Source: a virus | Lineage: Duplodnaviria; Heunggongvirae; Uroviricota; Caudoviricetes | Direction: 5' to 3' (one strand) | Length of the DNA stretch: 14,457 nucleotides | IMG/VR virus record: IMGVR_UViG_2537562191_000039 | Coordinates: 1-14,457 of that record | Shown here: in pieces, positions 1 through 12,989 of the stretch | Layout: each line of letters opens with the position of its first letter | How positions within the stretch are numbered: the stretch's first letter is position 1 | Notes under the pieces: generated by a model | Database searches by the model: none | Told to the model about the DNA's origin: nothing | The model's input: the letters and a program-made list of their open reading frames with translations, nothing else | Made by a program: the position numbers and the translations under genes

Positions 1-170
1 TGGCCACACTAACGTGGGTGGACTGGTATAACAATCGACGATTGCTGGGAAGGCTGGGCCATACTCCTCCGGCAGAAGCAGAAAAAGCTTATTATGCTTC
101 CATCGGAAACGATGATCTGGCAGCCTGAGTTCACAGATAAAACACTCTCCAGGAAACCCGGGGCGGTTCA
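1..170 (+). mobile_element. Right end of an insertion sequence (transposase 3' end plus terminal repeat); outer boundary approximate
   Basis: Transposase stop at 126-128 is followed by about 40 nt before methyltransferase-coding sequence resumes in another frame. The end is placed provisionally at the CA dinucleotide at 169-170. The left end and any target-site duplication lie outside the window, so the boundary is unverified. Confidence 0.45.
3..128 (+). CDS. DDE transposase/integrase (rve-type, IS3-family-like), C-terminal fragment; 5' end is off-window
   Basis: Frame 3 is open from nt 3 to TGA at 126-128 and translates to ATLTWVDWYNNRRLLGRLGHTPPAEAEKAYYASIGNDDLAA*. The W..WYN..R....G..TP.E.E pattern matches the conserved C-terminal end of rve-type transposase catalytic domains. 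Not in the ORF track because the start is outside the window. Confidence 0.6.
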   Translation, partial: ATLTWVDWYNNRRLLGRLGHTPPAEAEKAYYASIGNDDLAA

Positions 171-181
171 AATCCCCTGAC

Positions 182-3100
182 GTGCTCGTCGGGGGAACAC
201 CATGTTTTACCGCGGGGCATATGGTTCTTTGTAAAAATGGCTATAAACCAATAGAAAATGTTTGCCCTGGTGATTACGTAGTCAGTCATCTCGGGCGGTT
301 ACAACAAGTAAAAAGAGTTGGTTCAAAAATAGCTAATACGGGGTTACTTAATGCCGTTGGGCAGCCTTTAGGTATAAGAACAACCAATGACCATCCCTTC
401 CTGGCTGTTCGGTGGAAAGCCCAAAACACCCGGAAAAATGGCACATATTTTAAGAGAGAGTTGTTGTCTGAACCGGAATGGCGAGCAGCATGTGATATGC
501 CGGGATATCAATGGTGCGCTCTAACTAATTTCAATATTGCATTTCCAGATATTTGTTCTCGGTTCTTGTCTGAAGAACAGGCTATGTATCTTGCGGGCGC
601 TTATGTTGGCGATGGATATATTAGGAGATGGAGAGGTAAATCTAAGAAGGCGGTTGTTTTTGGCATAAATTGCCAGAAATTGAGAAAGTTTCATTGCCGC
701 ATACCAGAAAACATATTTTCCGTGGCAAGCGAAATCCGAGGGAGCATCAAAGTAACCTTGAATGATACGTGTTATGCCAATTGGCTTAATGAACATTTTG
801 GCGAGTTAAGCCATGCTAAGCGTATCCCTGCATGGGTGATGTCGCATCCATTGCGTCATGTGTTTTTACAAGGCTATCTTGATACTGATGGGACACCAAG
901 TGGTAAAGCGGGATTTAGAATTAATAGTGTTAGTTCTGCGCTTGCTTGGGGCGTTGCGGGGTTGTCACAGACTTGTGGTTATGTTTCTTCGGTCAGCTTT
1001 ATTGAAGTTGAGCCCAAAAAAGTGATCGAGGATCGCGTGGTAAATCAACGGAATTATTATCAGGTAACAATCTGCCCGCAGAAATTGTCACGTAAATCAA
1101 GATTGGCTCATGGAATGCTTTTACGAACAGTCAAAGAGTTTAAATCGGTAGGCCTAGATACTGTATACAACATAGAAGTCGAAGGTGATCATTCCTATAT
1201 CCTCAATGGTGCGGTGGTCCATAACTGTCAGGCATTCAGTATCGCGGGATTACGTGGTGGGCTTGATGATGAGCGTGGCGCGCTAACTTTAAAGTATGTG
1301 GAGCTTGCAAATGCAATTGACGACAAACGGGCTGAGTCATTTCTCAAACCAGCCGTTATCGTCTGGGAAAATGTCCCAGGAGTCTTGTCATCGGCAGATA
1401 ACGCCTTCGGATGTTTCCTTGCCGGATTGGCTGGAGAAGATGCGCCATTTGAACCAGGTGATCGACCTGAATCAGGAAAAAGTAACACGTTCTGGCGGTG
1501 GGATGGCAAAACCGGTTGCCATGCTCCAAAGTGGCCGCAGTGTGGTTGTATTTATGGACCGCAGCGAAAAGTGGCCTGGAGAATCCTTGATGCCCAATAC
1601 TTCGGAGTGGCACAACGACGCCGACGCGTGTTTGTTGTCGCAAGTGCTCGAACAGACCTCGATCCCGCAACGGTACTTTTTGAGTTCGAAGGCGTGCGCC
1701 GGAATATTGCGCCGAGCCGAAAAAAGAAGGAAATCGCTTCCGCCATTATTGCAAATGGCGCTGCAATCAGTGGCGAAAGCCTAAATCCATGCCTACACGC
1801 TGACATGCCACCCGGTATGAAATCGACGAAAGCCGTAAACGCTTTCAGGATGGCAGCATTTGGGGAATATATTGACGATGAAACCGCATCGACAGTAAAG
1901 GCAAGAGATTTTAAAGATGCCACTGACCTTGCCGTTTTTAGCAGCACAGGAGCAGGTTTTTGGTCAGAAGGGCATGGTACATTGCGGGCACGTGAGCAAG
2001 AAAGCCATGAGCATCTTGTTACATTGGCTTTTCCTGAGCGTATGAGCGGTACACAACATGCTGCAACTAAGAATACTTCACCATCTCTAATGGCTAAAAA
2101 TCCAACAGCTGTTTGCTATGAAGTAAGAAACGCAGAAGTAGCTGTCCGCCGTCTTACCCCTGTCGAATGTGAAAGGCTGCAAGGTTTTCCTGAGGGGCAT
2201 ACGTTGATCCCGACGGAAAAGCGTAAAAAAGTTTCTTCAGATGAACTGGCATACCTTCGCAATCACTATCCAGATTTAAGCGAAGAAGAGGCCGCGATGC
2301 TTGCAGCTGACGGACCGCGTTACAAAGCGATCGGCAACAGCATGGCAGTTCCTGTTATGCAATGGATAGGGTGTCGCATTCTTGCGACCGTAGCGGATAA
2401 ACAGCAAAAAACAATAAATACCATTACCTACACAAGAAAACTCCGGACTCCGGATGAATATGAACGCCCAATATTCAAATGGGTAGGCGGTAAATTCTCA
2501 GAGTTGCCTACAGTGCTTGAGCATCTACCACACGGCAAGCGGTTAATAGAACCATTCGTTGGTGGCGGTTCCGTATTTACGAATGCAGGATTTCGCCACA
2601 ACCTGCTTAATGATATTAACGGTGACCTGATTAACTTCTATCAGACATTGCAGCGAGAGGGACATTCGCTCGTCACGCTGGCATATAGTTTTTTCAAAAA
2701 TTACAACAACGCTGACGCTTACCTCGAAGTGCGTGAGGCATTTAACAGAGGAAAGTATGACCAACTACATCATGCTGCTGCCTTTTTGTACCTTAATCGG
2801 CACTGTTTTAATGGCGTAACGCGGTACAACCAAAATGGCGAGTTCAACGTAGGGTATGGCAAATACAAAGCGCCCTACTTCCCACATGCAGAGATGGAGG
2901 CATTTTTGGCTGATGACGTACTCAAAAACACTTCCTTTGTATCAGGTGACTTTGCTAGCGTCATTGAGGCGGCTGGTGAAGACGATGTGATTTTTTGTGA
3001 TCCGCCGTATGAACCGCTTCCGGATACAGAGGGATTTACCAGCTATTCAGGAAATAGCTTCCGTTTCGACGAACAGAAACGGCTTGTATCACTGTTGGTG

Positions 3101-3274
3101 GATGCCCACCAGCGCGGCGCTAAGGTAGTGATAACAAATAGTGGTGCTCCAAACATCCGTGAACTATATGAAGGAAACGGGTTTAAAGTACATCATATGG
3201 CAGCCAGACGGTCGGTTTCCTGCAAGGCGTCAACACGTGTAGTTGCTAACGATATAATTGCAATAATGAAGTAA
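182..3274 (+). CDS. Fused DNA methyltransferase: C5-cytosine MTase domain (motifs IV-X only, intein-interrupted) plus Dam-like N6-adenine MTase domain; 5'-truncated by the IS
   Basis: ORF-track protein of 1030 aa. C5-MTase motifs appear in canonical order: motif IV split by the intein (SPDVLVGGTP|CQAFSIAGLRGG), motif VI VIVWENVPGV (ENV at nt 1367-1375), motif VIII YFGVAQRRRRVFVVA, motif IX RRLTPVECERLQGFPEGH, motif X AIGNSMAVPV. The last ~290 aa carry Dam-family motifs: KWVGGK, EPFVGGGSV (nt 2555-2572), FLYLNR, EFNVGYGKYK, FCDPPY (nt 2999-3010). No motifs I-III are present. Reading upstream in frame hits TGA at 113-115 inside the IS end, so the GTG at 182 (no Shine-Dalgarno) is probably not the ancestral start. 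Confidence 0.85.
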   Translation: MLVGGTPCFTAGHMVLCKNGYKPIENVCPGDYVVSHLGRLQQVKRVGSKIANTGLLNAVGQPLGIRTTNDHPFLAVRWKAQNTRKNGTYFKRELLSEPEWRAACDMPGYQWCALTNFNIAFPDICSRFLSEEQAMYLAGAYVGDGYIRRWRGKSKKAVVFGINCQKLRKFHCRIPENIFSVASEIRGSIKVTLNDTCYANWLNEHFGELSHAKRIPAWVMSHPLRHVFLQGYLDTDGTPSGKAGFRINSVSSALAWGVAGLSQTCGYVSSVSFIEVEPKKVIEDRVVNQRNYYQVTICPQKLSRKSRLAHGMLLRTVKEFKSVGLDTVYNIEVEGDHSYILNGAVVHNCQAFSIAGLRGGLDDERGALTLKYVELANAIDDKRAESFLKPAVIVWENVPGVLSSADNAFGCFLAGLAGEDAPFEPGDRPESGKSNTFWRWDGKTGCHAPKWPQCGCIYGPQRKVAWRILDAQYFGVAQRRRRVFVVASARTDLDPATVLFEFEGVRRNIAPSRKKKEIASAIIANGAAISGESLNPCLHADMPPGMKSTKAVNAFRMAAFGEYIDDETASTVKARDFKDATDLAVFSSTGAGFWSEGHGTLRAREQESHEHLVTLAFPERMSGTQHAATKNTSPSLMAKNPTAVCYEVRNAEVAVRRLTPVECERLQGFPEGHTLIPTEKRKKVSSDELAYLRNHYPDLSEEEAAMLAADGPRYKAIGNSMAVPVMQWIGCRILATVADKQQKTINTITYTRKLRTPDEYERPIFKWVGGKFSELPTVLEHLPHGKRLIEPFVGGGSVFTNAGFRHNLLNDINGDLINFYQTLQREGHSLVTLAYSFFKNYNNADAYLEVREAFNRGKYDQLHHAAAFLYLNRHCFNGVTRYNQNGEFNVGYGKYKAPYFPHAEMEAFLADDVLKNTSFVSGDFASVIEAAGEDDVIFCDPPYEPLPDTEGFTSYSGNSFRFDEQKRLVSLLVDAHQRGAKVVITNSGAPNIRELYEGNGFKVHHMAARRSVSCKASTRVVANDIIAIMK
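203..1225 (+). other. Intein (Hint splicing domain with LAGLIDADG homing-endonuclease insert), 341 aa, inserted at the catalytic Cys of the C5-MTase PCQ motif
   Basis: Begins with Cys (TGT 203-205) directly after GGTP, with an N-terminal block CFTAGHMVLCKNGYKPIENVCPGDYVV. Block B is TNDHPF. Two LAGLIDADG-type motifs, LAGAYVGDGY (nt 590-616) and FLQGYLDTDG (nt ~866-892), each retain the Asp. Block F is VYNIEVEGDHSY. Ends ILNGAVVHN (AAC 1223-1225) followed by +1 Cys (TGT 1226-1228). Removing it joins GGTP to CQAFSIAG, restoring GG.PCQ.FS.AG. Confidence 0.8.
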
Positions 3275-3304
3275 AAAACGCCGCAGTAGCGGCGTTTACT
3301 TTTT
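3273..3304. terminator. Bidirectional rho-independent terminator between the convergent MTase and glnS genes
   Basis: Hairpin with stem CGCCGC (3279-3284), loop AGTA, stem GCGGCG (3289-3294). An A-run (3273-3278) lies on one side and a T-rich tract TTTACTTTTT (3295-3304) on the other, giving a U-tract on either strand. Confidence 0.7.
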
Positions 3305-3322
3305 CATGTGGCGAAATACCTA

Positions 3323-4984
3323 TTAACCTAACTTCGCCCAGGTATCACGCAGCCCAACGGTGCGGTTAAATACCGGTTTTTCCGCCGTAGAATGGCGGCT
3401 GTCGAGGCAGAAATAACCTTCACGCTCAAACTGGAATGCTTTACCCGCTACCGCTTCTTTCAGCGACGGTTCAGCAAAGCCCTGTTTGATCACCAGCGAT
3501 TCCGGGTTAATCACCGACAGGAAATCATCCGCAGCACCTGGGTTCGGCACGTTGAACAGACGATCGTACAGGCGGATTTCAACCGGCAGCGCATGTGCCG
3601 CGCTCACCCAGTGAATAACGCCTTTCACTTTACGACCATCTGCCGGATCTTTGCTTAAGGTGTCGGCGTCATAAGTACAGAAGATGGTGGTGATATTGCC
3701 TTCGGCATCTTTCTCCACGCGTTCAGCCTTAATGACGTAAGCATTACGCAGACGCACTTCTTTACCCAGCACCAGACGTTTGTACTGCTTGTTAGCTTCT
3801 TCGCGGAAATCGGCGCGGTCGATCCAAATCTCACCGCTAAACGGCACCTGACGGCTACCCATTTCCGGTTTGTTTGGATGGTTCGGCATGGTGACCATTT
3901 CGCCTTCGCCCTGGTAGTTTTCGATAACCAGTTTCACCGGATCGATAACCGCCATTGCGCGCGGGGCATTTTCGTTGAGATCTTCACGGATGCAGGATTC
4001 CAGCGACGCCATCTCAATGGTGTTGTCCTGCTTGGTCACGCCGATGCGTTTGCAGAACTCACGAATAGAAGCCGCAGTGTAACCACGACGACGCAGACCG
4101 GAAATGGTCGGCATACGCGGGTCATCCCAGCCTTCAACGTGCTTGTCGGTCACCAGCAGGTTCAGCTTACGCTTGGACATCACGGTGTATTCCAGATTCA
4201 GGCGCGAGAATTCGTACTGGCGCGGATGAACAGGAATGGTGATGTTGTCCAGTACCCAGTCATACAGACGACGGTTGTCCTGGAACTCAAGCGTACACAG
4301 AGAGTGCGTAATACCTTCCAGCGCATCGCTGATGCAGTGGGTGAAGTCGTACATCGGGTAGATGCACCACTTGTTGCCAGTCTGGTGGTGTTCAGCAAAC
4401 TTAATACGGTACAGCACCGGGTCGCGCATCACGATAAACGGCGAAGCCATGTCGATTTTCGCACGCAGGCAGGCTTTACCTTCTTCAAAACCACCGGCAC
4501 GCATTTTTTCGAACAGCGCCAGGTTCTCTTCAACGCTGCGGTCGCGGTACGGGCTGTTTTTACCCGGCTGCGTCAGGGTGCCGCGGTATTCGCGGATCTG
4601 TTCCGGCGTCAGTTCGTCAACATACGCCAGGCCTTTGTTGATCAGTTCAACAGCATAGGCATGGAGTTTGTCAAAATAATCGGAGGAGTAACGGATGTTG
4701 CCAGACCAGTGAAAACCTAACCATTCAACGTCGTTTTTAATCGACTCAACGTACTCGATATCTTCTTTTACTGGGTTAGTGTCGTCGAAACGCAGGTTGC
4801 ACTGGCCTTTATAGTCCTGGGCGATCCCGAAGTTCAGGCAGATAGATTTCGCATGACCAATATGCAGATAGCCATTCGGTTCCGGCGGGAAACGGGTATG
4901 TACTGTGGTGTGCTTACCACTGGCCAGATCTTCATCGATGATCTGACGAATAAAGTTAGTCGGGCGGGCTTCTGCCTCACTCAT
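3323..4984 (-). CDS. glnS: Glutamine--tRNA ligase (glutaminyl-tRNA synthetase)
   Basis: 553-aa product begins [48 protein letters not shown], with the class I HIGH motif and a VMSKR (KMSKS-type) motif. Full length and near-identical to E. coli GlnRS as I recall it. The flanks are not the chromosomal nagE/chiP neighbours. Confidence 0.97.
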
Positions 4985-5173
4985 TGTGGATTCCTCAAAG
5001 CGTAAACAACGTATAACAGCGTATGATCTTATAAGCCGAATAGGCTGACAACCACTAGTTGATTAGAAATTGCTTTCTATCGTTATTTCAATAATGAGCT
5101 TTTTCATGAAGCCCACTTTTGCGCATAAGTAAATTAATGATAAATGGCACACAATTGGAACCAAAAAGGATGT

Positions 5174-5211
5174 AAAGGTGCACCAAATTAGTGGTGTATT
5201 GGTACACCTTT
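5174..5211. promoter_or_regulatory. Imperfect palindrome downstream of the ParA/RHH operon; candidate protein-binding site or weak terminator
   Basis: Arms AAAGGTGCACC (5174-5184) and GGTACACCTTT (5201-5211) pair at 10 of 11 positions across a 16-bp spacer. No clean U-tract follows on the minus strand. Confidence 0.35.
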
Positions 5212-5252
5212 GGTTCAAGACTTTTTAAGTTCTAAAACCAACCTGAAAGACT

Positions 5253-5540
5253 TTATTTTGCTTCCTCAGACTCCGCTAACATGAGGATAGCATGGCGGAT
5301 CATATTCAATTTGCTGCGATTATGCTTTTTACTTAACGCATCAAGTACTTGGTACTCGTATTCATTGAAACCAACACGAATAGATTTAAAATCACGTGGA
5401 GCGTCCTTATCGAGCACTTTGTTGTCTTCTGGTTGCTCACCCGGCACCAAATCAGCCTTACTGGCAAAATCCTCAATTCGGCGTTCAAGATCGGGGTCTT
5501 TTACTTCGGGGGCTTTTACCGATTTACGAGGCTTAATCAC
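5253..5540 (-). CDS. ParG-like ribbon-helix-helix centromere-binding partner of ParA
   Basis: 95 aa. C-terminal RHH pattern: strand KSIRVGFNEYEY, helix QVLDALSKK, helix KLNMIRHAILMLAE, after a charged flexible N-terminus. GTG start overlaps the parA stop by 8 nt, with AAGGAG just upstream (translational coupling). Confidence 0.55.
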   Translation of the reverse strand: MIKPRKSVKAPEVKDPDLERRIEDFASKADLVPGEQPEDNKVLDKDAPRDFKSIRVGFNEYEYQVLDALSKKHNRSKLNMIRHAILMLAESEEAK

Positions 5541-6174
5541 TTAATAACTCCTTAACCAACATCTGGATTTCACCTTTAGCTTTCCCGTTGTCCATCTCAA
5601 CAACGCCCTTCCCTTCAGCCATGCAATCGCGGTAAACCTTACGATCACGAATGATGGTTTTCAGCAACTTCAGTTGCGGATATTCAGCTAGGTACTCTTT
5701 GGCCTCATTGGTTTCATTCACAACCGGATTGGATGGGGCCATTGTTAAGACTGCGAACGCCTTAATGCTAGGATTAGGCATCAGGTCCAAAGCCTCTTCA
5801 AACACTTCAACAAAGTGTGCCAGCGTGTCTAAATCTGGTTGAGATGGTCTGAATGGGACCAACACAATATCTGCAGCGGTTATGCCTGTACGCATCTCTT
5901 TGCTATCGCGCCCGGCTGTATCAACAACTACAAATTCATAACGCTTATCCAGATCGAGAAGTGTTTCTCGAATATTACCAAACTTCTGGACACAATGAAT
6001 TACAGGAGAAACCTCTGCCGTGTTACGGTCAGCTGCCCAGCGGGCAGCTGTTCCTTGCTTGTCTGCATCTAGTAACACTACATCCTTATTTGCGCGGGCA
6101 AGCTCCGCACAGATGTTTACGCTTGTGGTTGATTTTCCACAGCCACCTTTTTGGCTGACTACCAATATAATCAT
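5533..6174 (-). CDS. parA: ParA-family partition ATPase (small, type Ib-like)
   Basis: Deviant Walker A near the N-terminus, MIILVVSQKGGCGKSTTSVN, then LLDADKQG and VVVDTAGR motifs typical of ParA/MinD ATPases. Start placed at the internal ATG 6174, which has GAGGAA 5 nt upstream, rather than the ORF-track start at 6204. Confidence 0.85.
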   Translation of the reverse strand: MIILVVSQKGGCGKSTTSVNICAELARANKDVVLLDADKQGTAARWAADRNTAEVSPVIHCVQKFGNIRETLLDLDKRYEFVVVDTAGRDSKEMRTGITAADIVLVPFRPSQPDLDTLAHFVEVFEEALDLMPNPSIKAFAVLTMAPSNPVVNETNEAKEYLAEYPQLKLLKTIIRDRKVYRDCMAEGKGVVEMDNGKAKGEIQMLVKELLSD

Positions 6175-6418
6175 ATCCGTTCCTCGGTGTGATTTTGGTA
6201 TCAAAACGGTTCCAGATAAGAGCCTTTTTGATGCGGGACAGGCTCTATAATGGAGTCATGAATGTTTGGCAAAGTATAACATCAATCAGACCAAATACAC
6301 CTTATATTGCATCCTATTTAACACGAAATCAGCCCTAAATTGGAACCAGATACAAAATTGCACCATAACAGCACCTAACCGGTGCCAGATTAACACTAAT
6401 TAGACACCATTAAGGCAT

Positions 6419-6443
6419 AAAAAAGGCTGCAATTTGCAGCCTT
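6419..6443 (-). terminator. Rho-independent terminator of the parM-parR operon
   Basis: Perfect inverted repeat AAGGCTGCA / TGCAGCCTT (6423-6431 and 6435-6443) about 20 nt past the parR stop. On the minus strand it is followed by a run of six T (complement of the A-run at 6419-6424). Confidence 0.65.
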
Positions 6444-6461
6444 AAACCAGCACATCTTCTG

Positions 6462-6806
6462 TCAATCAGGTAGAGAGTCAGCCAGATTGCGCGCCGACGC
6501 GCTTTTGGCAACAACTTGCTCCTTCACTGGCTCAATGGAGGCAGGGCGCTCCTCAACCGCAGCTGGTAGTTCCAGGAAGGATGCCAGCATTTTTCGGATC
6601 AGCTCCGGGTTATTGTCTTCGGTCAGCAGGGAAGCCAGTAATCCTGGAAGCCTGCTATCGACTTCTCCCAGCGCAAGCCCTGCCAACAATGCGGTTCTTG
6701 CCATATCGCTATGTTTTTTTATCTTCTCGCTCGCCGCCTTTTCATTGGCATAAGCCTCTGGGCGAAGATAAATCATCACTTTCTTACGTTCCTGAGACAT
6801 GGACAT
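6462..6806 (-). CDS. parR: ParR-like centromere-binding adaptor of the type II (ParMRC) partition system
   Basis: 114 aa. N-terminal KKVMIYLRPE and central ARTALLAGLALGEVDSRLPGLLASLLTE resemble plasmid R1 ParR/StbB as I recall it. Sits directly downstream of parM with GAGG 4 nt before its ATG. Confidence 0.75.
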   Translation of the reverse strand: MSMSQERKKVMIYLRPEAYANEKAASEKIKKHSDMARTALLAGLALGEVDSRLPGLLASLLTEDNNPELIRKMLASFLELPAAVEERPASIEPVKEQVVAKSASARNLADSLPD

Positions 6807-6813
6807 TACCTCG

Positions 6814-7770
6814 TTAACCGATTGCTTTCAGGCCATGAACAAGAGCAAGTTGCGGGTCATCCGCCACGAAGAAACGGTCATCACGAATATTAACTTGCTC
6901 GCGAATTGCATCTGCCACCAGCGGTGCGCCACCACCGATCACCATGACATGCGTATATCCTTTAAAGTCGCCAATCACATCAAGAACTCGGGTACGCAGA
7001 CGGTCAATGCTTGCGGCAATGGCCTTTTTCACATCACCAATCGCTGATGGGTCATTGATATTGTCGTTCAGATAATCTTCATCGTGGCGGTTAATAATGA
7101 GCTGATCAACATTGTAATTTGACGTTTCGGTATTGGCCCTTGCAAGTGCTTGCCTTACTTCCCTGGTGACCAGTGATACACCAAGATTCGAATCGCCAAA
7201 AACACGGGAAACTGCCGTCATTTGCCCAGCGACCATTGAAACATCAAGGGTAGTTCCACCCAAATCGACGATAAGAACAGAATGGACAGGGTTCAGATTG
7301 TCGCACAGGCCAATTCCTGCCGGAATAGACTCCGGTCGTACCGTAACTTTCTTAATCGTGAACACATTGCCTTTATTCAGCGTGACGGGGCGCATAAGGC
7401 TGGCTTTCTTGCGCTCGATGTTATCGAGATTGTATTGCGCGTCGTCGTCGTAAAACTCCGCCAGAGGCAGCGTGACCACAATTTCTACTTCCTGCGGCTC
7501 AATACCGCTTGTCAGCAGGGCATGGTGAACAGCCAGGACGTTAAGCGGGCTGTATTGCCATTCCACGTTATTCGTCGGCAGAACATCTGGCGAGATCAAA
7601 TCATACGAATACTTCTCGTCGTCAATGACATAGTTAAACGGCTTGCCAGCACCAAATGTTGCTGACCATCCGCGCTTAAAGCTGTTAGGACTGATGTGAG
7701 TGCGAGTTTCCCCGTCGTGCTCCCACAGCATTTTGATATTGGTTGAACCATCATCGATAAAAATGCGCAT
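6814..7770 (-). CDS. parM: ParM/StbA actin-like plasmid segregation ATPase
   Basis: MRIFIDDGSTNIK (phosphate 1), LIVDLGGTTLDVS (phosphate 2) and HVMVIGGGA (adenosine) motifs; colinear with R1 ParM as recalled over the whole length. Start placed at the internal ATG 7770, which has GGAG 7 nt upstream; the ORF-track start at 7794 is a GTG eight codons further up. Confidence 0.9.
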   Translation of the reverse strand: MRIFIDDGSTNIKMLWEHDGETRTHISPNSFKRGWSATFGAGKPFNYVIDDEKYSYDLISPDVLPTNNVEWQYSPLNVLAVHHALLTSGIEPQEVEIVVTLPLAEFYDDDAQYNLDNIERKKASLMRPVTLNKGNVFTIKKVTVRPESIPAGIGLCDNLNPVHSVLIVDLGGTTLDVSMVAGQMTAVSRVFGDSNLGVSLVTREVRQALARANTETSNYNVDQLIINRHDEDYLNDNINDPSAIGDVKKAIAASIDRLRTRVLDVIGDFKGYTHVMVIGGGAPLVADAIREQVNIRDDRFFVADDPQLALVHGLKAIG

Positions 7771-7796
7771 CTTCTTGCTCCACTTCTGAGACACAT

Positions 7797-7951
7797 TTGA
7801 GAATCAAAATGTAATTTTAAAAGAGAAGCACCCAAAAATCCACACCAAACGAGACAAAAAAGAGCGCTTGTTGAGTTTATTTTGAGAATATCTTAATCAC
7901 CCACTGAATGATGGCCTGATAGTGAGATTTATTTGAGAATGAATTGAGAAT
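7797..7951. repeat. Iteron cluster (parC-like centromere/operator) in the parM upstream region
   Basis: Exact TTGAGAAT copies at 7797-7804, 7882-7889, 7933-7940 and 7944-7951, plus degenerate copies TTGAGTTT (7871-7878) and GTGAGATT (7922-7929). All lie between the divergent parM and PAAR genes. Confidence 0.55.
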
Positions 7952-8036
7952 ACAAAAATATTCCGAAATTTAACTCTCCGTTTGAATGACGAAATAACAA
8001 AGTGATGACAATAGGAGGATAACCAGGAGGTGAAGA

Positions 8037-8321
8037 ATGAGCGCAATAGCCACCAGCGACACCCTTTGTTCTGGTCACGGAGGATTTCCGCCGCGACTGG
8101 TAGCTGAAACCGTTCCCTGGTTCACCGTTAACGGTAAGCCAGTTGTTGTAGATGGTGCCATGTTTCCCAGTCACACTGACGGTAACAGTGCACACCCAGG
8201 GGCAGCTGTATCGACGCGAGTATGGTTTTCGATAGGTGGAAAGGGAGTTGTCTGTGTAGGCGATCCGCTTTCTTGTGGTTCTGTTATCGCCAACGGCGAG
8301 GATATTTTTCAGGTTGCATAA
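8037..8321 (+). CDS. PAAR-domain protein (spike-tip type, as in phage gp5.4 or T6SS PAAR)
   Basis: 94 aa with three PAAR-like segments and conserved metal ligands: DTLCSGHGGFPP, VNGKPVVVDGAM...HTDGNSAHPG, IGGKGVVCVGDPLSCGSVIANG. Strong RBS AGGAGG at 8025-8030, 6 nt before ATG 8037. Confidence 0.7.
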   Translation: MSAIATSDTLCSGHGGFPPRLVAETVPWFTVNGKPVVVDGAMFPSHTDGNSAHPGAAVSTRVWFSIGGKGVVCVGDPLSCGSVIANGEDIFQVA

Positions 8322-9124
8322 TGCTTGATTCAATAGGTGAAGTTAAAGCCTTCAAAATTCTGTCAGATGCCGGTATCTCTACACCAGAATCTATAACCAT
8401 AAGCCGGGCAGCTTCTGTAAAAGCCTCATCACTCGCCAGCGCCATACAGGGAATAGTTCACGCCGATAAAACCTATCCTGATTCTGTTTCGGCCTGGACT
8501 ACTCAATTGCTTGGCTTTTCTGAACAGCTCAATGAGGCCAGCAAAGCGTCTTCATTACTGGCTGATTCTCTTTCCCCATACACCAAGCCATCAGAGCTGT
8601 TACAGATGAAGATTGGCTGGGAATGCTACGCAAAAGGTAACGAGCTGACCCCCATACCTGCTTTCGCCCTTGTTGAGGGAATGGGGAATGTTTCCATTCC
8701 GCAATCTCTAACGGACGCATTGACGGCGCTAAAACTTGATGCTCTGAAAACCGCCATGAACGCCATTAACGCAAAAATTGAAGCTGCCGGAAGTGCTGGT
8801 GGTGATAGCAATGGTGGGCAGGGTGGTACTGGGGGCGCTCAGGCTCCAGTCATTACTCAGGATGAAATTGATGCTTTACGGGAAGCAGTGACAGCCGCCG
8901 AAGTTTTACTCTCCGAAATTAACTCAGCAAGTGAGAGTGTCGTAGCCCTTGCAGGTCGCATTAAAACGTCAACCACTCAGGCAACCAAAGGTTTAGAGAA
9001 CGCTGTCGCCATCACGTTAACTGGTTCTCTACTGGATGATGCAGTAATGAGTCCGGCAATCAGTTTAATCATACCACAAGGCGTTATCGACGCGCTCCAA
9101 ACGAACACCAAAAAGGAACCATAG
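8321..9124 (+). CDS. Hypothetical protein, Ala/Ser/Leu-rich with a central Gly-rich linker; function unknown
   Basis: ATG at 8321 overlaps the PAAR stop (TAATG). 267 aa from MLDSIGEVKAF. Internal low-complexity linker AGSAGGDSNGGQGGTGGAQAP. No transmembrane segment or catalytic motif recognised. The ORF-track N-terminal extension from 8222 overlaps the PAAR gene and is rejected. Confidence 0.55.
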   Translation: MLDSIGEVKAFKILSDAGISTPESITISRAASVKASSLASAIQGIVHADKTYPDSVSAWTTQLLGFSEQLNEASKASSLLADSLSPYTKPSELLQMKIGWECYAKGNELTPIPAFALVEGMGNVSIPQSLTDALTALKLDALKTAMNAINAKIEAAGSAGGDSNGGQGGTGGAQAPVITQDEIDALREAVTAAEVLLSEINSASESVVALAGRIKTSTTQATKGLENAVAITLTGSLLDDAVMSPAISLIIPQGVIDALQTNTKKEP

Positions 9125-9163
9125 CAACACCACTTAGGAACACAAAAGGATATAAATTGGTAC

Positions 9164-9655
9164 ATGTTTAACACCAAAAAAATGAACCTGAAGAGGATGG
9201 TTTTGAAAAAGATAATTTTGATTGTAATTGCGCTTTTAGCCATTTCTGGAATTTACCGAACAACGACGGCAGTTATCGAACACATCAGGTATGTCCGATC
9301 GCTTGAAGACTCAAAATCACAACTGGAAAGCACGAACAACACGCTTTCTACCGCATTACAGTTAAGTGAGAACGCTCGCTCAGCCATGCTGACCGAAAAC
9401 GAAAGAATTAAAGCACTGGAAAAGGAGTACCAGCGCAAAACAGCAGAACTGAATGCCAACCTAATCAAACAACGAGAGGAAAGCCAGAATGAAATCACTC
9501 GCCTTGAAAATGCGTTACGCCGTGCTGGGATTAACGATGTGCGTGTGCCTGATGACGTTATCAGGATGCAGCGGGAACGGGCAAAAGCCATCAACCAGCG
9601 TGCCAGTGAAAATTACCGTAGAAGCCACCAGCAAGCCGCAGGCAAATCTGATTGA
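9164..9655 (+). CDS. Putative i-spanin (Rz-like inner-membrane spanin subunit)
   Basis: 163 aa. N-terminal basic region then a hydrophobic segment IILIVIALLAISGIY (type II membrane anchor), followed by a charged, heptad-rich periplasmic region. The o-spanin gene is embedded in its 3' part in another frame. Confidence 0.6.
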   Translation: MFNTKKMNLKRMVLKKIILIVIALLAISGIYRTTTAVIEHIRYVRSLEDSKSQLESTNNTLSTALQLSENARSAMLTENERIKALEKEYQRKTAELNANLIKQREESQNEITRLENALRRAGINDVRVPDDVIRMQRERAKAINQRASENYRRSHQQAAGKSD

Positions 9656-9821
9656 TTACTCCCCTTGTTTAGTGCCAGAGGACACGCCAGTGCTGTTAAA
9701 CAAGTATCCGACATACGCTGAACAGTTATTCAGCACGATCGACGAATGCAACCAACGAAACGCACTGAATAACCAAAGAAACAGGGAGATTTGGGAAGGG
9801 AAGGGGGATCAAGGCTCCTGA
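9489..9821 (+). CDS. Putative o-spanin (Rz1-like outer-membrane lipoprotein)
   Basis: Signal peptide with lipobox (MKSLALKMRYAVLGLTMCVCLMTLSG|C) and a Pro/Cys-containing mature region. Starts inside the i-spanin gene in a different frame and extends 166 nt past its stop. GAGGA lies 8 nt upstream of ATG 9489; ATG 9510 is an alternative start. Confidence 0.6.
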   Translation: MKSLALKMRYAVLGLTMCVCLMTLSGCSGNGQKPSTSVPVKITVEATSKPQANLIDYSPCLVPEDTPVLLNKYPTYAEQLFSTIDECNQRNALNNQRNREIWEGKGDQGS

Positions 9822-10267
9822 AGCCAGATGTCCTGGCTGTCAGCTTCTTCGAAACCGTGACAGACGTTAAAGTCACTCAAGCGATACTGACGCTGACGGC
9901 CTCTATTTCGCTCATGCCAATGCATGTATCCACCAGCAAATGCCAGCGGACAATCACTATAGTCTATGTAACCAATACCATTCCCCAAACGTGCTTCGCG
10001 CGCACCGGCTTTCCAGGACAGTAGAAAAGAGTCACGATCCGCCAGCATAACAACAAAATCGTCCGGATCTCCGATACAGTGAAGAATACCTGCCTTACAT
10101 AACTGCTTGAGCGCTTTTGACTGGCTCAGGATGTCTTCTCCGTAATACTGAAAACAATCATCAACAACAGCGGGATAGCCTGCCGGGGGATTCAGGCTGG
10201 TTGGTATAGCTGACGCGATCGCCAGCATTAAGCGATATTGTGTTTTTGATGGGTTAACGTGACTCAT
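9809..10267 (-). CDS. Hypothetical protein (152 aa), second gene of a two-gene minus-strand operon
   Basis: ORF-track 152 aa beginning MSHVNPSKTQYRLMLAIASAIP. AAGGGA sits 5 nt upstream of the ATG. No recognisable domain. Its 3' end overlaps the convergent o-spanin gene by 13 nt. Confidence 0.55.
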   Translation of the reverse strand: MSHVNPSKTQYRLMLAIASAIPTSLNPPAGYPAVVDDCFQYYGEDILSQSKALKQLCKAGILHCIGDPDDFVVMLADRDSFLLSWKAGAREARLGNGIGYIDYSDCPLAFAGGYMHWHERNRGRQRQYRLSDFNVCHGFEEADSQDIWLQEP

Positions 10268-10283
10268 TTTGTCCCTTGTTTAC

Positions 10284-10676
10284 TCATTGTCGCCATGCAT
10301 TTTTTAACTCAGGAATATCTGCCATTTCAATTAACTTGCGAAGTCCAGCACTGACTTTCCCATTGCCAACCATAGCAAGCCAATCTCTTACAGCTTTCGG
10401 CATGTAGAGCGTTGCAGTTACCGGCTCTTCAACCCTGGCAGGACATCCGCATACAGGCCATTTAATTGATTCCATAACTTCGGATGCCGGGGTGAGGGCG
10501 GGGACATTGAGTATATCTCTACCAGAAAACTGGATAACGATCCGTTCAGCGAGCGAGAGTATCTCACTTTCGGCAAGAATTGATGCCAACTGCGCCTCAA
10601 CAAGAAAGCGACTTGTTGTGTTCAGAGAGTGGCTCTTAGCGCCATTTTTATACGAAACAAAGATTCGATACGCCAT
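10284..10676 (-). CDS. Hypothetical protein (130 aa) with C-terminal ribbon-helix-helix-like DNA-binding region
   Basis: C-terminus TATLYMPKAVRDWLAMVGNGKVSAGLRKLIEMA fits a strand-helix-loop-helix RHH pattern (Arc/MetJ-like). The N-terminal ~80 aa are unrecognised. First gene of the operon, 16 nt upstream of the 152-aa gene. Confidence 0.55.
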   Translation of the reverse strand: MAYRIFVSYKNGAKSHSLNTTSRFLVEAQLASILAESEILSLAERIVIQFSGRDILNVPALTPASEVMESIKWPVCGCPARVEEPVTATLYMPKAVRDWLAMVGNGKVSAGLRKLIEMADIPELKNAWRQ

Positions 10677-10834
10677 AACTCTAATGATTTGTGTTAGAAA
10701 ACTAAAATTAAATCACATAACAACATGCGTGTTAATAGATTTTATTTTACTAAACCTATTGACTAAATCACAAAGTAGGTATTGTTAGCCCGTCAAAAGA
10801 ACCTTCACGCCGCGCCCGAATTTAGGGCTTAACC

Positions 10835-12532
10835 GTGAATAAAAACATTCAGCCAGCTCGTGATCGCGAGCGCGAGATTATGAATCGGGCGGCAAGCGTC
10901 ATGGCTATGACCGTCGATCCGACCACCGATGCAGCAGGCAACATGATTGCTGACCAGGCAGTAATGATGGAAAACCTGGATAAAGCAATCCAGAAAGTGC
11001 CTATGTTTGAAGGCGTAAATCCAGAGGTCGCTCGTCAGATCACTGGTGGGTGGGCTATGTCTCTGCATGAGTATAAACGTCAACATGGTCATTACCCGGC
11101 AAGTGACATCCTGGCGAACGCACACATGGCTCTTGAACGCCTGATGACTGAATGTGCCAGTGATACCCATGAAGGCACGGGTAAGGCAATGTTTGAGTCT
11201 GTCGCGCAATCAATGCGTAGCTCTGACGGCGTAATGAAAGTTGCTCAATATGCTGCTCTAATTCTGCCTGCCTCTCTGGGCGCTGCTACCAGTGATGCCT
11301 GTACTTTTGTTCCTTGTGATCGTGACGAGTCAAATATTTATGAACTGGTCAACGTAGCAGGCACAAAATTCGGCACCTTCAAACAAGGTGACGAACTGAA
11401 TATGCAGTCAGCTGGTGTTTATTCTCAAATGAAGCGCCTGTATACCCTTTCCACTAAAGGGGATGGCAGCACCAAAACCTTCCAGTTCGACATCCAAAAT
11501 TTTGAGGGACAATCCTGCCCGCTTCGCGCTGGTTATAACAAACTGCTGATCAACCGCAAACCGTCCAAAGTTGACGACGGCGATGGCAACCTTTATTTCA
11601 ATGCTAAAGACAGCAAAGGTAATGCTTTCTCAGCGACTGCCAAAGTTGCCTATGACACTGGTGTCATTGACATTACATTTACCCAGGCTCCGCCAGAAGG
11701 TACTGAAATTGCTGTTCAGGTCGAAATTAACATCGAGCGCAATCCAAGCCTGATTCCTGTGATCAACCAGGCTATGCGTAAGTACGAAGTTCGTCCGTCC
11801 CAGTACGTAATTGCTTCCGAACACACGGTAATGTCCGCATCCGATTTAAGCCGTGAGCACGGCCTTGAATTAGCGGCACTTCAGTTCTCCGCGATGCGTA
11901 ACTGGATCTCCCATGAAACTGACATCATGCGTCTGCGCACCCTGGTATTCCATACCGTTTATGGCCGTGAATTTGATGTGGCTCTGCCGGAAGCTCAAAA
12001 CTATGAGTCCTGGGTCGGCCTCCTGCGTCACGTAGTAAACGCTCTGTCTCAGGAAATGGCAAATCGTACCCTGACAACGGGTATTCGTGGCGGCTTTGCT
12101 GGTGGTGACGCCGCGAACTTCCTGCGCTCTCTGCCTCCACAGCACTTCCAGATCGCACCAGGTTACGTTCAGTCGCCGTATGTACAGTACATCGGCACCC
12201 TGTTTGGCACGATTCGTATTTACGAAGTGCCGCAACCTGTCTGTGAGCAATTCCAGGCACAGGGATATGACTTCGGGCTGGATGACATCTTCTTCTATGG
12301 GCGTGGCGAAGGCATCGGTAAAGCCGGTCTGATTGCTGGTGATGCAGTCCCTGCAATCCCTTACGTGCACGAAACCAATCCGTCTCTCGTTAACCGTACC
12401 ACTCTCTGGGGCAGTGCCATCAACGAAGTACATCCTCGCAACGGTGAAAACTACTTCACTCGCCTGCGTCTGACTCGTGCCAAAGAAGGCGCTATCGACA
12501 TGCTGACAGGCAAGGTTAACGAAAAAAAGTGA
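10835..12532 (+). CDS. Putative major capsid protein (large phage head protein); exact family not established
   Basis: 565-aa ORF with GTG start (an in-frame ATG at 10880 is an alternative). It is followed by an Ig-like decoration-type gene and ends in an A_AAA_AAG slippery heptamer. The C-terminal region loosely recalls T4 gp23-type capsid proteins, but this is from memory only. The gene is certainly real; the product call is tentative. Confidence 0.5.
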   Translation: MNKNIQPARDREREIMNRAASVMAMTVDPTTDAAGNMIADQAVMMENLDKAIQKVPMFEGVNPEVARQITGGWAMSLHEYKRQHGHYPASDILANAHMALERLMTECASDTHEGTGKAMFESVAQSMRSSDGVMKVAQYAALILPASLGAATSDACTFVPCDRDESNIYELVNVAGTKFGTFKQGDELNMQSAGVYSQMKRLYTLSTKGDGSTKTFQFDIQNFEGQSCPLRAGYNKLLINRKPSKVDDGDGNLYFNAKDSKGNAFSATAKVAYDTGVIDITFTQAPPEGTEIAVQVEINIERNPSLIPVINQAMRKYEVRPSQYVIASEHTVMSASDLSREHGLELAALQFSAMRNWISHETDIMRLRTLVFHTVYGREFDVALPEAQNYESWVGLLRHVVNALSQEMANRTLTTGIRGGFAGGDAANFLRSLPPQHFQIAPGYVQSPYVQYIGTLFGTIRIYEVPQPVCEQFQAQGYDFGLDDIFFYGRGEGIGKAGLIAGDAVPAIPYVHETNPSLVNRTTLWGSAINEVHPRNGENYFTRLRLTRAKEGAIDMLTGKVNEKK

Positions 12533-12645
12533 TGGTGGCGAACGTGTCGGTATCACCAACGTCACTTGACGTAGATGAAGGTGAAACTATCGCCGCGAAC
12601 ACTTCAAAGGCACAGAAAAAAACAAAGCAGAAGTAAGGCAAAAAC

Positions 12646-12666
12646 ACGCCCCTGAATAAGGGGCGT
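12646..12666 (+). other. RNA hairpin between the capsid gene and the Ig-like gene (not a canonical terminator)
   Basis: Stem ACGCCCC (12646-12652) / GGGGCGT (12660-12666) with a 7-nt loop. No U-tract follows; it is followed directly by AGGAG (12669-12673) and ATG 12680. Confidence 0.35.
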
Positions 12667-12679
12667 TCAGGAGAAAAGA

Positions 12680-12958
12680 ATGGCAAACATTCAAGTAACT
12701 ATCTCGCCATCTGACGCAACAGACAAATCTTTCACTGTTGAGTCCGATCACCCTGAAATTGTCCAGGTTGATGGCACTACATGTACCGCTCTTAAGGCCG
12801 GGCAGGCAGTGCTGACAATCAAAACAAATGACGGCAATAAAACCGCACAGTGCACAGTCACTGTTAGGGAGGCACCTAAAAGCGTAAGCGCCGTCAGTGT
12901 TGAACCAACTACGAAAGAAGTAACCGTAGGCGACAACTTCACGGTAAGCGAATCCTGA
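12680..12958 (+). CDS. Ig-like (Big_2-type) domain protein, probable head decoration or accessory protein
   Basis: 92 aa. VTISPSDATDKSFTVESDHPEIVQVDGTTCTALKAGQAVLTIKTNDGNKTAQCTVTV fits the bacterial Ig-like group 2 pattern. RBS AGGAG is 6 nt upstream. The C-terminal VSAVSVEPTTKEVTVGDNFTV looks like the start of a second, truncated Ig-like domain. Confidence 0.65.
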   Translation: MANIQVTISPSDATDKSFTVESDHPEIVQVDGTTCTALKAGQAVLTIKTNDGNKTAQCTVTVREAPKSVSAVSVEPTTKEVTVGDNFTVSES

Positions 12959-12962
12959 TCAG

Positions 12963-12989
12963 AGGCTGCCCATTAACCGTGGGTAGCCT
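12963..12989 (+). other. RNA hairpin downstream of the Ig-like gene; possible weak terminator or attenuator
   Basis: 10-bp stem AGGCTGCCCA (12963-12972) / TGGGTAGCCT (12980-12989) with one G-U pair and a 7-nt loop, followed by a pyrimidine-rich rather than clean U tract. Confidence 0.3.

What the first reader, a model, noticed from the sequence alone, without database searches (positions are those of the whole stretch)
1..205. IS end abuts the methyltransferase gene just upstream of motif IV, apparently truncating the C5 domain
A transposase C-terminus ends at nt 128. The MTase reading frame is already open from nt 116 and encodes ...GNPGRFKSPDVLVGGTP, the run-up to C5-MTase motif IV, but it hits TGA at 113-115 inside the IS-like end. 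Motifs I-III (AdoMet binding) are nowhere in the ORF. The simplest reading is an IS insertion that split an ancestral gene, leaving a C5 domain that should be inactive and a Dam-like domain that is intact. Expression would then depend on the weak GTG at 182 or on read-out from the IS.
Basis: partly seen in the sequence, partly recalled or inferred. Interest (0 to 1): 0.5.

Follow-up and report, generated by a model that had tools for sequence, protein, structure and literature searches.

The report
IS629-split, intein-bearing phage-plasmid methyltransferase gene
An ordinary insertion sequence (IS629) has cut off the first 67-70 codons of a phage-plasmid DNA methyltransferase gene.

Summary
Window 1-170 is 100% identical to the right end of IS629/IS1203. 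The transposase stop is at 126-128 and the IS tip (...GGTTCA) is at 170, not 128.

The IS sits inside dmt, the bifunctional C5-cytosine/Dam methyltransferase gene of P1/D6-type phage-plasmids. I predicted the protein the other junction should encode if this were a simple insertion. That exact protein exists on another contig of the same assembly: hrdC, then dmt codons 1-67, then AAT, then the IS629 left end. AAT also flanks the IS in the window (171-173), so this is a clean insertion with a 3-bp duplication. Motifs I-III are lost, so the C5 domain should be dead. The Dam domain is intact.

- "GNPGRFK" is encoded by the IS, not the methyltransferase.
- "GGTP|C" is not motif IV. The Cys at 203-205 is residue 1 of a 341-aa LAGLIDADG intein (203-1225). 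The true catalytic Cys is at 1226-1228.
- The contig is P1-type up to about 1442 and D6-type from 1226 on. This is either a real recombinant or an assembly mis-join.

The IS event is ordinary. The intein is the more interesting part.

The parts
1..170 (+). Right end of IS629/IS1203 (IS3 family). The transposase OrfB C-terminus is in frame 3 (3-125), with stop TGA at 126-128. The right inverted repeat runs to the tip ...GGGGCGGTTCA at 170. The contig (which is the whole window) starts inside this multicopy repeat.
   Evidence: 170/170 identical to the end of a complete 1310-bp IS1203 copy in L002. 99.4% identical to IS629 of VT1-Sakai, annotated there as 'inverted repeat from right end of IS629'. 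The left and right inverted repeats match at 13/13 terminal bases, TGAACCGCCCCGG. The window is the entire contig AEZU02000060.1.
171..173 (+). AAT, the right copy of the 3-bp target-site duplication made by the IS629 insertion.
   Evidence: Left junction on L008...GGGGAAATCGAAT|TGAACCGCC. Right junction in the window...GGTTCA|AATCCCCTGACG. The intact allele has a single AAT: GGGGAAATCGAATCCCCTGACG. An IS1203 copy in L002 likewise has a 3-bp duplication, AAG.
171..202 (+). Remnant of the dmt N-extein: 2 nt of the Glu codon plus SPDVLVGGTP, the first half of C5-MTase motif IV. The nominal start GTG at 182-184 has no Shine-Dalgarno sequence.
   Evidence: 100% identical to the intein-containing P1-like allele L001. 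Two SNPs (181, 202) against the intein-less D6, P1 and P7 alleles. No SD-like motif upstream of 182 or of ATG 221.
203..1225 (+). 341-aa class-1 intein with a LAGLIDADG homing endonuclease. Cys1 is at 203-205, block B TNDH at 383-394, LAGLIDADG motifs at 590-616 (LAGAYVGDG) and 866-892 (LQGYLDTDG), block F at 1163-1198, and terminal His-Asn at 1220-1225.
   Evidence: Intein-less alleles (pE2863-2, P1, P7) read GGTP-CQAFS without interruption, and their similarity to the window resumes exactly at 1226. Pfam: Hint_2 28.6 bits against a 28.4 cutoff, LAGLIDADG_3 30.3 against 22.5. NCBIfam TIGR01443 intein_Cterm 25.9 against 15.6. The AF2 model has pLDDT 92.7. Foldseek top hits are PI-SceI, TliVMA, PI-PfuI and PI-PkoII, E 7e-17 to 1e-9. 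Homologous inteins sit at the same site in other C5-MTases.
1226..2356 (+). C-extein C5-cytosine methyltransferase part. The +1 Cys (the catalytic Cys of motif IV, PCQ) is at 1226-1228. CQAFSIAG is at 1226-1249, motif VI ENVPG at 1367-1381, motif VIII QRRRRVF at 1613-1633, motif IX at 2147-2191, and motif X GNSMAVPV at 2333-2356.
   Evidence: PF00145 matches profile positions 136-296 only. TIGR00675 scores 80.8 bits, below the 100.65 cutoff, whereas the intact intein-less allele scores 118.2.
2229..2247 (+). Sequence identical to the predicted P1-type late promoter 'LPdam2' annotated inside P7 dam (-22 box plus -10). It is followed by ATG 2297 with a GAGG Shine-Dalgarno sequence. This is a candidate route to a Dam-only product.
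   Evidence: P7 record annotation. Exact 19-nt match in the window and in six related loci. SD and ATG. The promoter is a prediction in the P7 record and has not been tested.
2480..3274 (+). D12-class (Dam) N6-adenine methyltransferase domain. FVGGGS is at 2555-2572, DPPY at 2999-3010, and the stop TAA at 3272-3274. This is the D6-type allele.
   Evidence: PF02086 matches profile 1-252 of 253, E 7e-56. TIGR00571 scores 247.7 bits against a 114.85 cutoff. 100% nt identity to the intact dmt of pE2863-2 from 1226 to the stop.
3276..3297 (.). GC-rich 9-bp hairpin between the convergent dmt and glnS genes. It looks like a terminator on both strands.

Best explanation
The window is a whole draft contig of E. 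coli 4.0522 that begins inside a copy of IS629/IS1203. That IS inserted, by ordinary transposition with a 3-bp AAT duplication, into codon 67 (P1-type numbering; codon 70 in D6-type) of dmt. In P1, dmt is the third gene of the C1-repressed uhr-hrdC-dmt operon of P1/D6-type phage-plasmids, and it encodes a C5-cytosine MTase fused to a Dam MTase. The insertion leaves two pieces. One is a 76-aa stub (motifs I-III plus 9 IS-encoded residues) on another contig. The other is the 3' ORF seen here. The 3' ORF has lost its promoter, ribosome-binding site, start codon and the AdoMet-binding motifs I-III, so its C5 domain should be catalytically dead. Independently of the IS, this allele carries a 341-aa LAGLIDADG intein inserted exactly between Pro and the catalytic Cys of motif IV. 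In intact copies, that Cys doubles as the +1 splicing nucleophile, and an active C5 site exists only after protein splicing. The Dam domain is unaltered. Any Dam activity would need one of two routes: poorly initiated translation from GTG 182 on transcripts reading out of the IS, followed by splicing; or, more plausibly, the conserved internal late-promoter-like site at 2229-2247 with ATG 2297. Shown: the IS identity and boundary, the duplication, the other half of the gene, the intein anatomy, its fold and its empty-site alleles, and the loss of motifs. Inferred: C5 inactivity, the expression routes, and splicing competence.
For: - IS identity: window 1-170 is 170/170 identical to the IS1203 end. 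IS629 is annotated at the same sequence in VT1-Sakai.
- Prediction test: assuming a simple insertion with an AAT duplication, I predicted the left-junction product as P1-type Dmt residues 1-67 plus LNRPGNPGD*. That exact 76-aa sequence is in the protein collection as EIH78378.1 [E. coli 4.0522]. It is encoded on AEZU02000047.1 of the same assembly (GCA_000194335.2) as the window, directly after hrdC/rdgC and directly before IS629 orfA.
- Junction sequences give AAT on both sides against a single AAT in intact alleles.
- Intact relatives are 1095 aa with the intein and 762 aa without it. PF00145 profile positions 4-119, which cover the region holding motifs I-VI, map to residues 10-138 of the intact protein.
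- The truncated ORF falls below the TIGR00675 cutoff: 80.8 against 100.65.
- Intein.
- Operon and promoter context in P1 and P7.
- No sigma-70-like promoter in 1-3229 and no SD before 182 or 221.
- Dam domain full length and 100% identical to an intact allele.
Against: - The two junctions lie on different contigs, so physical linkage through a single IS629 copy is inferred from the matching site and duplication. It has not been read.
- The left contig is P1-type over more than 8 kb, while the window is D6-type from 1226 on. The ORF as written may therefore be a recombinant or an assembly mis-join.
- No expression, methylation or splicing data exist.
- LPdam2 is only a prediction in the P7 record.
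- Split C5-MTases can sometimes reassemble from fragments (own knowledge: M.AquI), so 'dead' is likely but not proven.
Confidence: 0.88

Rival explanations
1. The contig is a chimera, and ORF 182-3274 does not exist as one gene. The strain carries a P1-like plasmid with the IS629-split, intein-containing dmt and a separate D6-like plasmid with its own dmt. The assembler walked from one to the other through the near-identical dmt core. The IS insertion would still be real, but the 'intact Dam domain' would belong to a different, possibly intact, gene.
For: Window 171-1442 is 100% identical to the P1-like allele L001, and 1226-14457 is 100% identical to D6-like pE2863-2. The switch therefore falls within a 217-nt stretch identical in both, inside about 775 nt that are 99.4% identical. 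The same assembly holds a P1-type replicon contig (L008: parB, parA, rep) and a D6-type RepB contig (L012). None of at least 83 D6-like PLSDB plasmids carries the intein, whereas 129 plasmids do, and the intein-bearing records I examined were P1-like. The data are 454 reads: a loxP paired-end linker is left at the end of L008.
Against: The contig is not broken at 1226 or at about 2000-2444. An overlap assembler would normally break there if two diverging alleles were present (inference). Real recombination or intein homing between co-resident plasmids would give exactly this pattern. No D6-type left-junction or D6-type 5' dmt fragment was found among my exact look-ups, though this is a weak negative.
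Confidence: 0.35
2. The 5' part was lost through an IS-mediated adjacent deletion or rearrangement rather than a simple insertion.
For: The window alone cannot exclude this, because it starts inside the IS.
Against: The 5' part exists in the same assembly. It ends at exactly the same nucleotide and carries the same AAT triplet. The same left junction also occurs in two unrelated sequencing runs (L007, L009).
Confidence: 0.04
3. The ORF is a natural short isoform that starts near nt 182 and never had motifs I-III.
For: Gene callers annotate a 1030-aa protein starting at GTG 182.
Against: All intact relatives start 67-70 codons upstream and carry motifs I-III. The sequence upstream of 171 is IS629. 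There is no SD before 182.
Confidence: 0.01
4. The 76-aa N-terminal stub (motifs I-III) and the spliced C-terminal product reassemble in trans into an active C5-MTase.
For: Naturally split C5-MTases exist (own knowledge: M.AquI). Both fragments are still encoded.
Against: The cut lies inside the Rossmann-fold half between motifs III and IV, not in the variable region. The stub carries 9 foreign residues. The 3' ORF lacks translation signals.
Confidence: 0.04

Closest known systems
IS629 / IS1203 (IS3 family) insertions in STEC genomes and prophages
   Same: Terminal sequence identical (170/170). TG...CA ends. 3-bp target duplication. OrfB C-terminus identical. The insertion inactivates a prophage or plasmid gene.
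   Different: Nothing unusual. Only this particular target (dmt codon 67) is specific, and it recurs in two other sequencing runs.
Dmt of phage P1 (Dam of P7): bifunctional C5-cytosine / N6-adenine (GATC) DNA methyltransferase, third gene of the C1-controlled uhr-hrdC-dmt operon in P1
   Same: Same domain order (C5 then Dam). Same upstream neighbour, hrdC/rdgC. 85-100% nt identity in the C5 part. The LPdam2-like site is conserved.
   Different: P1 and P7 reference alleles have no intein (754 aa in the P1-type intein-less proteins; about 670 aa for the 2019-nt P7 gene). This copy has the intein, lacks codons 1-67, and its Dam domain is the D6 type, only about 67% nt identical to the P1-like one.
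Full-size LAGLIDADG inteins such as PI-SceI (VMA1), TliVMA, PI-PfuI and PI-PkoII
   Same: Cys1, TxxH block B, two LAGLIDADG motifs, terminal His-Asn, Cys at +1. Predicted HINT plus LAGLIDADG fold matches them at Foldseek E 1e-17 to 1e-9. Inserted at a catalytic residue of the host protein. Intein-free alleles exist.
   Different: Sequence identity to solved inteins is only 11-17%. The host protein is a C5-cytosine DNA methyltransferase, and the +1 nucleophile is the MTase catalytic cysteine. The carriers are enterobacterial P1-type phage-plasmids. Splicing and homing have not been tested.
Inteins in actinophage DNA methylases (Genes 2023;14:288, PMC9957025)
   Same: A phage methylase gene family patchily invaded by an intein, with signs of horizontal transfer between divergent host alleles.
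   Different: Different phage group and hosts. That paper never uses the words 'cytosine' or 'catalytic', so I could not compare the methylase family or the insertion site.

Membership tests
IS3 family, IS629/IS1203 | Terminal inverted repeats ending 5'-TG...CA-3' that match the reference element | tested here: met
   The right end is 170/170 identical to the annotated IS1203 copy. The left repeat (on L008) and right repeat share TGAACCGCCCCGG. The IS629 IRR annotation lies at this sequence in VT1-Sakai.
IS3 family, IS629/IS1203 | 3-bp direct target-site duplication flanking the element | tested here: met
   AAT lies on both sides (L008 8413-8415 and window 171-173) and once in intact alleles. 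The two sides are on separate contigs.
IS3 family, IS629/IS1203 | OrfA/OrfB transposase made by -1 frameshift, DDE domain, about 1310 bp | tested here: inconclusive
   Only the last 41 codons of orfB are in the window, and they are identical to the reference. L008 holds orfA and the start of orfB, with 454-type homopolymer errors. The complete copy is not assembled.
Intein (class 1, with LAGLIDADG homing endonuclease) | N-terminal Cys/Ser, block B TxxH, C-terminal His-Asn, and Cys/Ser/Thr at +1 | tested here: met
   Cys at 203-205, TNDH at 383-394, HN at 1220-1225, Cys at 1226-1228. These are conserved in homologues. TIGR01443 scores above its cutoff.
Intein (class 1, with LAGLIDADG homing endonuclease) | In-frame insertion at a conserved host site, with intein-less alleles whose sequence is continuous across the site | tested here: met
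   pE2863-2, P1 and P7 read GGTPCQAFS. The insertion is exactly 1023 nt.
Intein (class 1, with LAGLIDADG homing endonuclease) | HINT fold enclosing a two-motif LAGLIDADG endonuclease domain | tested here: met
   AF2 model pLDDT 92.7, pTM 0.89. Foldseek matches PI-SceI, TliVMA, PI-PfuI and PI-PkoII, and I-DmoI for the endonuclease part. Pfam LAGLIDADG_3 scores above its cutoff.
Intein (class 1, with LAGLIDADG homing endonuclease) | Protein splicing and site-specific DNA cleavage (homing) activity | not testable with these tools
   Indirect evidence only. The intein is 100% identical between alleles whose other parts differ by 1-33%, and two flanking SNPs track with intein presence.
C5-cytosine DNA methyltransferase (PF00145 / TIGR00675) | AdoMet-binding motifs I-III | tested here: not met
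   Absent from the window ORF. HMM matches start at profile position about 135. The motifs lie in residues 10-57 of intact alleles and on contig L008. TIGR00675 scores 80.8, below the 100.65 cutoff.
C5-cytosine DNA methyltransferase (PF00145 / TIGR00675) | Motif IV (PCQ catalytic Cys), VI (ENV), VIII (QRR), IX and X | tested here: met
   All are present, but motif IV is split by the intein into GGTP (191-202) and CQAFS (1226-1240).
Dam / D12-class N6-adenine DNA methyltransferase (PF02086 / TIGR00571) | Full-length domain with the FxGxG AdoMet motif and the DPPY catalytic motif, scoring above the curated cutoff | tested here: met
   PF02086 matches 1-252 of 253, E 7e-56. TIGR00571 scores 247.7 against 114.85. 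FVGGGS is at 2555-2572 and DPPY at 2999-3010. GATC specificity was not tested.
P1 Dmt orthologue | C5 plus Dam fusion located directly downstream of hrdC/rdgC in a P1/D6-type phage-plasmid | tested here: met
   L008 carries uhr-hrdC-dmt' and is 100% identical to P1-like L001. The window downstream is D6-like: glnS, parM, capsid, sheath. The P1/D6 hybrid status is unresolved.

The most novel reading that the evidence does not exclude
The intein is an actively homing element of enterobacterial phage-plasmids that uses the catalytic cysteine of a C5-MTase as its splice nucleophile. Under this reading the contig records a recent transfer of the intein, with a short co-converted flank, from a P1-type dmt into a D6-type dmt in a cell carrying both plasmids. 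This would be the only D6-type allele seen with the intein. It would mean E. coli isolates, usually treated as intein-free, commonly carry a mobile intein. It would also mean Dmt's cytosine-methylation activity is gated by protein splicing.
Probability: 0.3. Interest if true: 0.55.

Novelty: new member of a known kind. Interest (0 to 1): 0.3.

Why it matters
The IS629 insertion itself is routine pseudogenisation of a prophage or plasmid accessory gene, and it matters little: by my own knowledge of P1 biology, host Dam can substitute for P1 Dam in a dam+ host. It is worth correcting for annotation. Gene callers give this ORF a GTG start, and PGAP names its intact intein-containing relatives simply 'Dam family methyltransferase', which hides a truncation, a dead C5 domain and an intein.

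The by-product is more useful. A well-formed LAGLIDADG intein sits at the catalytic Cys of the C5 domain in Dmt. It is present in 129 PLSDB plasmids of Escherichia, Salmonella and Shigella and in about 36 of 5,426 complete E. coli genomes. I found no description of it in the searchable literature. It offers a tractable system, with P1 genetics in E. coli, for studying intein homing between co-resident phage-plasmids and for splicing-dependent activation of a DNA methyltransferase.

Tried and rejected
- Pfam on the 41-aa transposase tail gave no hit because the tail is too short. DNA identity to annotated IS copies settled the question instead.
- Exact look-up of four D6-type and two further P1-type predicted left-junction products found nothing. 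Only the P1-type product with an M start exists.
- The 1025-aa P1-type 'truncated' protein EIK9103299.1 looked like an independent case of the same truncation. Its contig simply starts inside an intact dmt, with no IS sequence, so I rejected it.
I could not list every contig of the assembly, so the question of hybrid versus mis-join stays open.
- The sigma-70 promoter scan found nothing upstream of or within the 5' part of the ORF. The only hit is at 3230-3258, near the stop.
- Sequence search of the PDB with the intein gave only weak hits: Spl DnaX mini-intein at E 0.0015 and PI-PkoII at E 0.024. Fold comparison was needed.
- Literature searches combining 'intein' with P1, Dmt, P1-like, phage-plasmid or cytosine methyltransferase found no paper describing this intein. 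The actinophage methylase intein papers concern other phages, and I could not compare their insertion site.
- There are no tRNA genes in the window.
Full report
**1. The observation**

- Frame 3 of nt 3-128 encodes ...WVDWYNNRRLLGRLGHTPPAEAEKAYYASIGNDDLAA and stops at TGA 126-128.
- The long ORF's frame is closed by TGA at 113-115 and open from 116.
- It reads SGSLSSQIKHSPGNPGRFKSPDVLVGGTPC, and GTG lies at 182.
- The ORF (182-3274, 1030 aa) has PF00145 and TIGR00675 matches only from profile position about 135 onward, plus a full-length Dam (PF02086) domain.

**2. The IS and its true boundary**

Nt 1-170 are 170/170 identical to the right end of a complete, annotated 1310-bp 'IS3-like element IS1203 family' copy in plasmid p7_55_62A-3 (L002). 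They are 99.4% identical to IS629 of phage VT1-Sakai, where the record annotates 'inverted repeat from right end of IS629'.

The element ends at nt 170 (...GGGGCGGTTCA), 42 nt beyond the transposase stop. Only SPDVLVGGTP (173-202) is methyltransferase.

**3. The window is a whole draft contig, and the other half of the gene exists**

The 1030-aa product is on record on a single contig, AEZU02000060.1 of GCA_000194335.2, whose length equals that of the window. The contig simply stops in a multicopy repeat, so the window cannot show the left side.

An IS1203 copy in L002 has a 3-bp duplication, AAG. If the insertion here were simple, the left junction should read ...GGGGAAATCGAAT|TGAACCGCCCC. 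It should then encode Dmt residues 1-67/70 followed by LNRPGNPGD*.

Of eight predicted variants, the one with a P1-type N-terminus exists exactly: EIH78378.1, 'hypothetical protein EC40522_B0128 [Escherichia coli 4.0522]'. It is encoded on AEZU02000047.1 of the same assembly (L008), directly after uhr and hrdC/rdgC and directly before IS629 orfA.

The junctions are ...ATCGAAT|IS629|AATCCCC..., whereas intact alleles read ...ATCGAATCCCC.... This is a clean insertion with a 3-bp AAT duplication and no deletion. The same left junction occurs in two unrelated sequencing runs (L007, L009).

**4. What the gene is and what was lost**

The gene is dmt, the bifunctional C5-cytosine/N6-adenine methyltransferase of phage P1 (annotated dam in P7). 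In P1 it is the third gene of the C1-repressed Pdmt-uhr-hrdC-dmt operon.

Intact relatives are 762 aa (D6-like plasmid pE2863-2, no intein) or 1095 aa (P1-like plasmids, with intein). In the intact protein, PF00145 profile positions 4-119 map to residues 10-138. By inspection of the intact sequences, the lost 67-70 residues contain motif I (SVCSGIEAAS), motif II (AEIEPF) and motif III (LGDM).

The truncated ORF scores 80.8 bits on TIGR00675 against a cutoff of 100.65. The intact allele scores 118.2.

**5.

After GGTP the ORF does not continue with CQAFS. It continues with CFTAGHMVL... for 341 residues and returns with ...AVVHN|CQAFSIAGLRGG.

Intein-less alleles (pE2863-2, P1, P7) read GGTPCQAFS without interruption. 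Their DNA similarity to the window resumes exactly at nt 1226.

The insert (203-1225) has these features:
- Cys1, block B TNDH, two LAGLIDADG motifs (LAGAYVGDG and LQGYLDTDG), block F (VYNIEVEGDHSY), terminal His-Asn, and Cys at +1.
- Pfam Hint_2 and LAGLIDADG_3, and NCBIfam intein_Cterm, all score above their cutoffs.
- An AlphaFold model built on 12 sequences has pLDDT 92.7.
- The model's best PDB matches are the full-size inteins PI-SceI, TliVMA, PI-PfuI and PI-PkoII (E 7e-17 to 1e-9).

The catalytic Cys of motif IV is at 1226-1228 and doubles as the +1 splicing nucleophile.

Homologous inteins (47-54% identity) occupy the same site in C5-MTases from Mannheimia and from metagenomes. Distant ones (29-33% identity) sit at the same P|C position in other C5-MTase lineages.

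The intein DNA is present at 95-100% identity in 129 PLSDB plasmids of Escherichia, Salmonella and Shigella. About 36 of 5,426 complete E. coli genomes hold the intein-containing dmt. I found no paper describing it.

**6. A P1/D6 mosaic, real or assembled**

- Window 171-1442 is 100% identical to a P1-like intein-containing allele (L001).
- Window 1226-14457 is 100% identical to D6-like pE2863-2.
- The Dam domain is only about 67% identical to the P1-like one.
- The left contig L008 is P1-like over its whole length (parB, parA, rep ... hrdC), and its uhr-hrdC-dmt' stretch is 100% identical to L001.
- The assembly also holds a D6-type RepB contig that abuts the window's right end (L012).
- No D6-like plasmid in PLSDB has the intein.
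- Two SNPs in the 32-nt N-extein remnant (GAC and CCA) are shared by intein-containing alleles. They differ (GAT and CCT) in all three intein-less alleles examined, as expected for a co-conversion tract.

There are two readings. In the first, a real recombinant arose by intein homing or by homologous exchange in the roughly 800-bp near-identical core between co-resident plasmids. In the second, the assembler mis-joined across that core in 454 data; a loxP paired-end linker is still present at the end of L008.

The contig is unbroken at 1226 and at 2000-2444, which argues mildly for a single real copy. I put the mis-join at about 0.35. It does not affect the IS result. It does affect whether the 'intact Dam domain' belongs to the IS-truncated gene.

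**7. How it most likely works**

Shown:
- The IS separates the 3' ORF from Pdmt, its RBS, its start codon and motifs I-III.
- There is no sigma-70-like promoter in 1-3229.
- There is no SD before GTG 182 or ATG 221.

Inferred:
- The C5 domain cannot bind AdoMet and is inactive, whether or not the short precursor splices.
- Full-length translation is poor and depends on read-out from IS629.
- The Dam part may still be made from the 19-nt sequence at 2229-2247, which is identical to the predicted late promoter LPdam2 of P7 and conserved in all relatives checked. This would use ATG 2297, which has a GAGG SD.
- In a dam+ host the loss should be tolerated (own knowledge of P1 biology: host Dam can methylate the pac site).

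**8. Verdict**

- The IS event is ordinary.
- The intein at the catalytic cysteine of Dmt, and its possible recent move between P1- and D6-type alleles, is a new member of a known kind and is modestly interesting.

Noticed in passing
window 203-1225: A 341-aa LAGLIDADG intein is inserted at the catalytic Cys of C5-MTase motif IV of dmt. It is widespread in plasmids of Escherichia, Salmonella and Shigella (129 PLSDB records; the intein-bearing records I examined were P1-like phage-plasmids). PGAP annotates the host gene only as 'Dam family methyltransferase'.
   Followed up: yes
window 179-181 and 200-202: Two synonymous SNPs (GAC, CCA) are shared by intein-containing alleles. Intein-less D6, P1 and P7 alleles have GAT and CCT. 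This looks like a co-conversion tract or a change in the homing site.
   Followed up: partly
window 1226-1442 (crossover interval): The contig switches from P1-type (100% identical to L001 up to 1442) to D6-type (100% identical to pE2863-2 from 1226). This is either a real hybrid or an assembly mis-join. The strain has both P1-type and D6-type replicon contigs.
   Followed up: partly
window 3323-4984 (-): A full-length glutaminyl-tRNA synthetase gene (glnS, 553 aa) is carried by the D6-like phage-plasmid. It is convergent with dmt.
   Followed up: no
window 3276-3297: A perfect 9-bp GC-rich hairpin lies between dmt and glnS. It looks like a terminator on both strands.
   Followed up: no
window 2229-2247: A 19-nt sequence is identical to the predicted late promoter LPdam2 annotated inside P7 dam. 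It is conserved in all P1- and D6-type alleles fetched and is followed by ATG 2297 with a GAGG SD. This could give a Dam-only product.
   Followed up: partly
L008 9040-9064 (AEZU02000047.1): The contig ends in GTCGTATAACTTCGTATAATGTATG, a loxP-type 454 paired-end linker left untrimmed. The IS629 part of this contig also shows homopolymer-type errors.
   Followed up: no
L012 8635-9848 (AEZU02000067.1): A second IS3-family element is inserted in the D6-like backbone of the same strain, next to a 161-aa gene that is 163 aa in relatives.
   Followed up: no
P0100 (Mannheimia haemolytica, 439 aa, 578 contigs): A homologous intein (47% identity) sits at the same site, but the C-extein ends 19 residues after the intein. 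The host MTase is truncated while the intein ORF is intact.
   Followed up: no
window 8037-8321 (+): A small PAAR-motif protein (faint Pfam hit in this contig; PGAP names the pE2863-2 homologue 'PAAR domain-containing protein') is encoded between the parM partition genes and the structural-gene block of the phage-plasmid.
   Followed up: no
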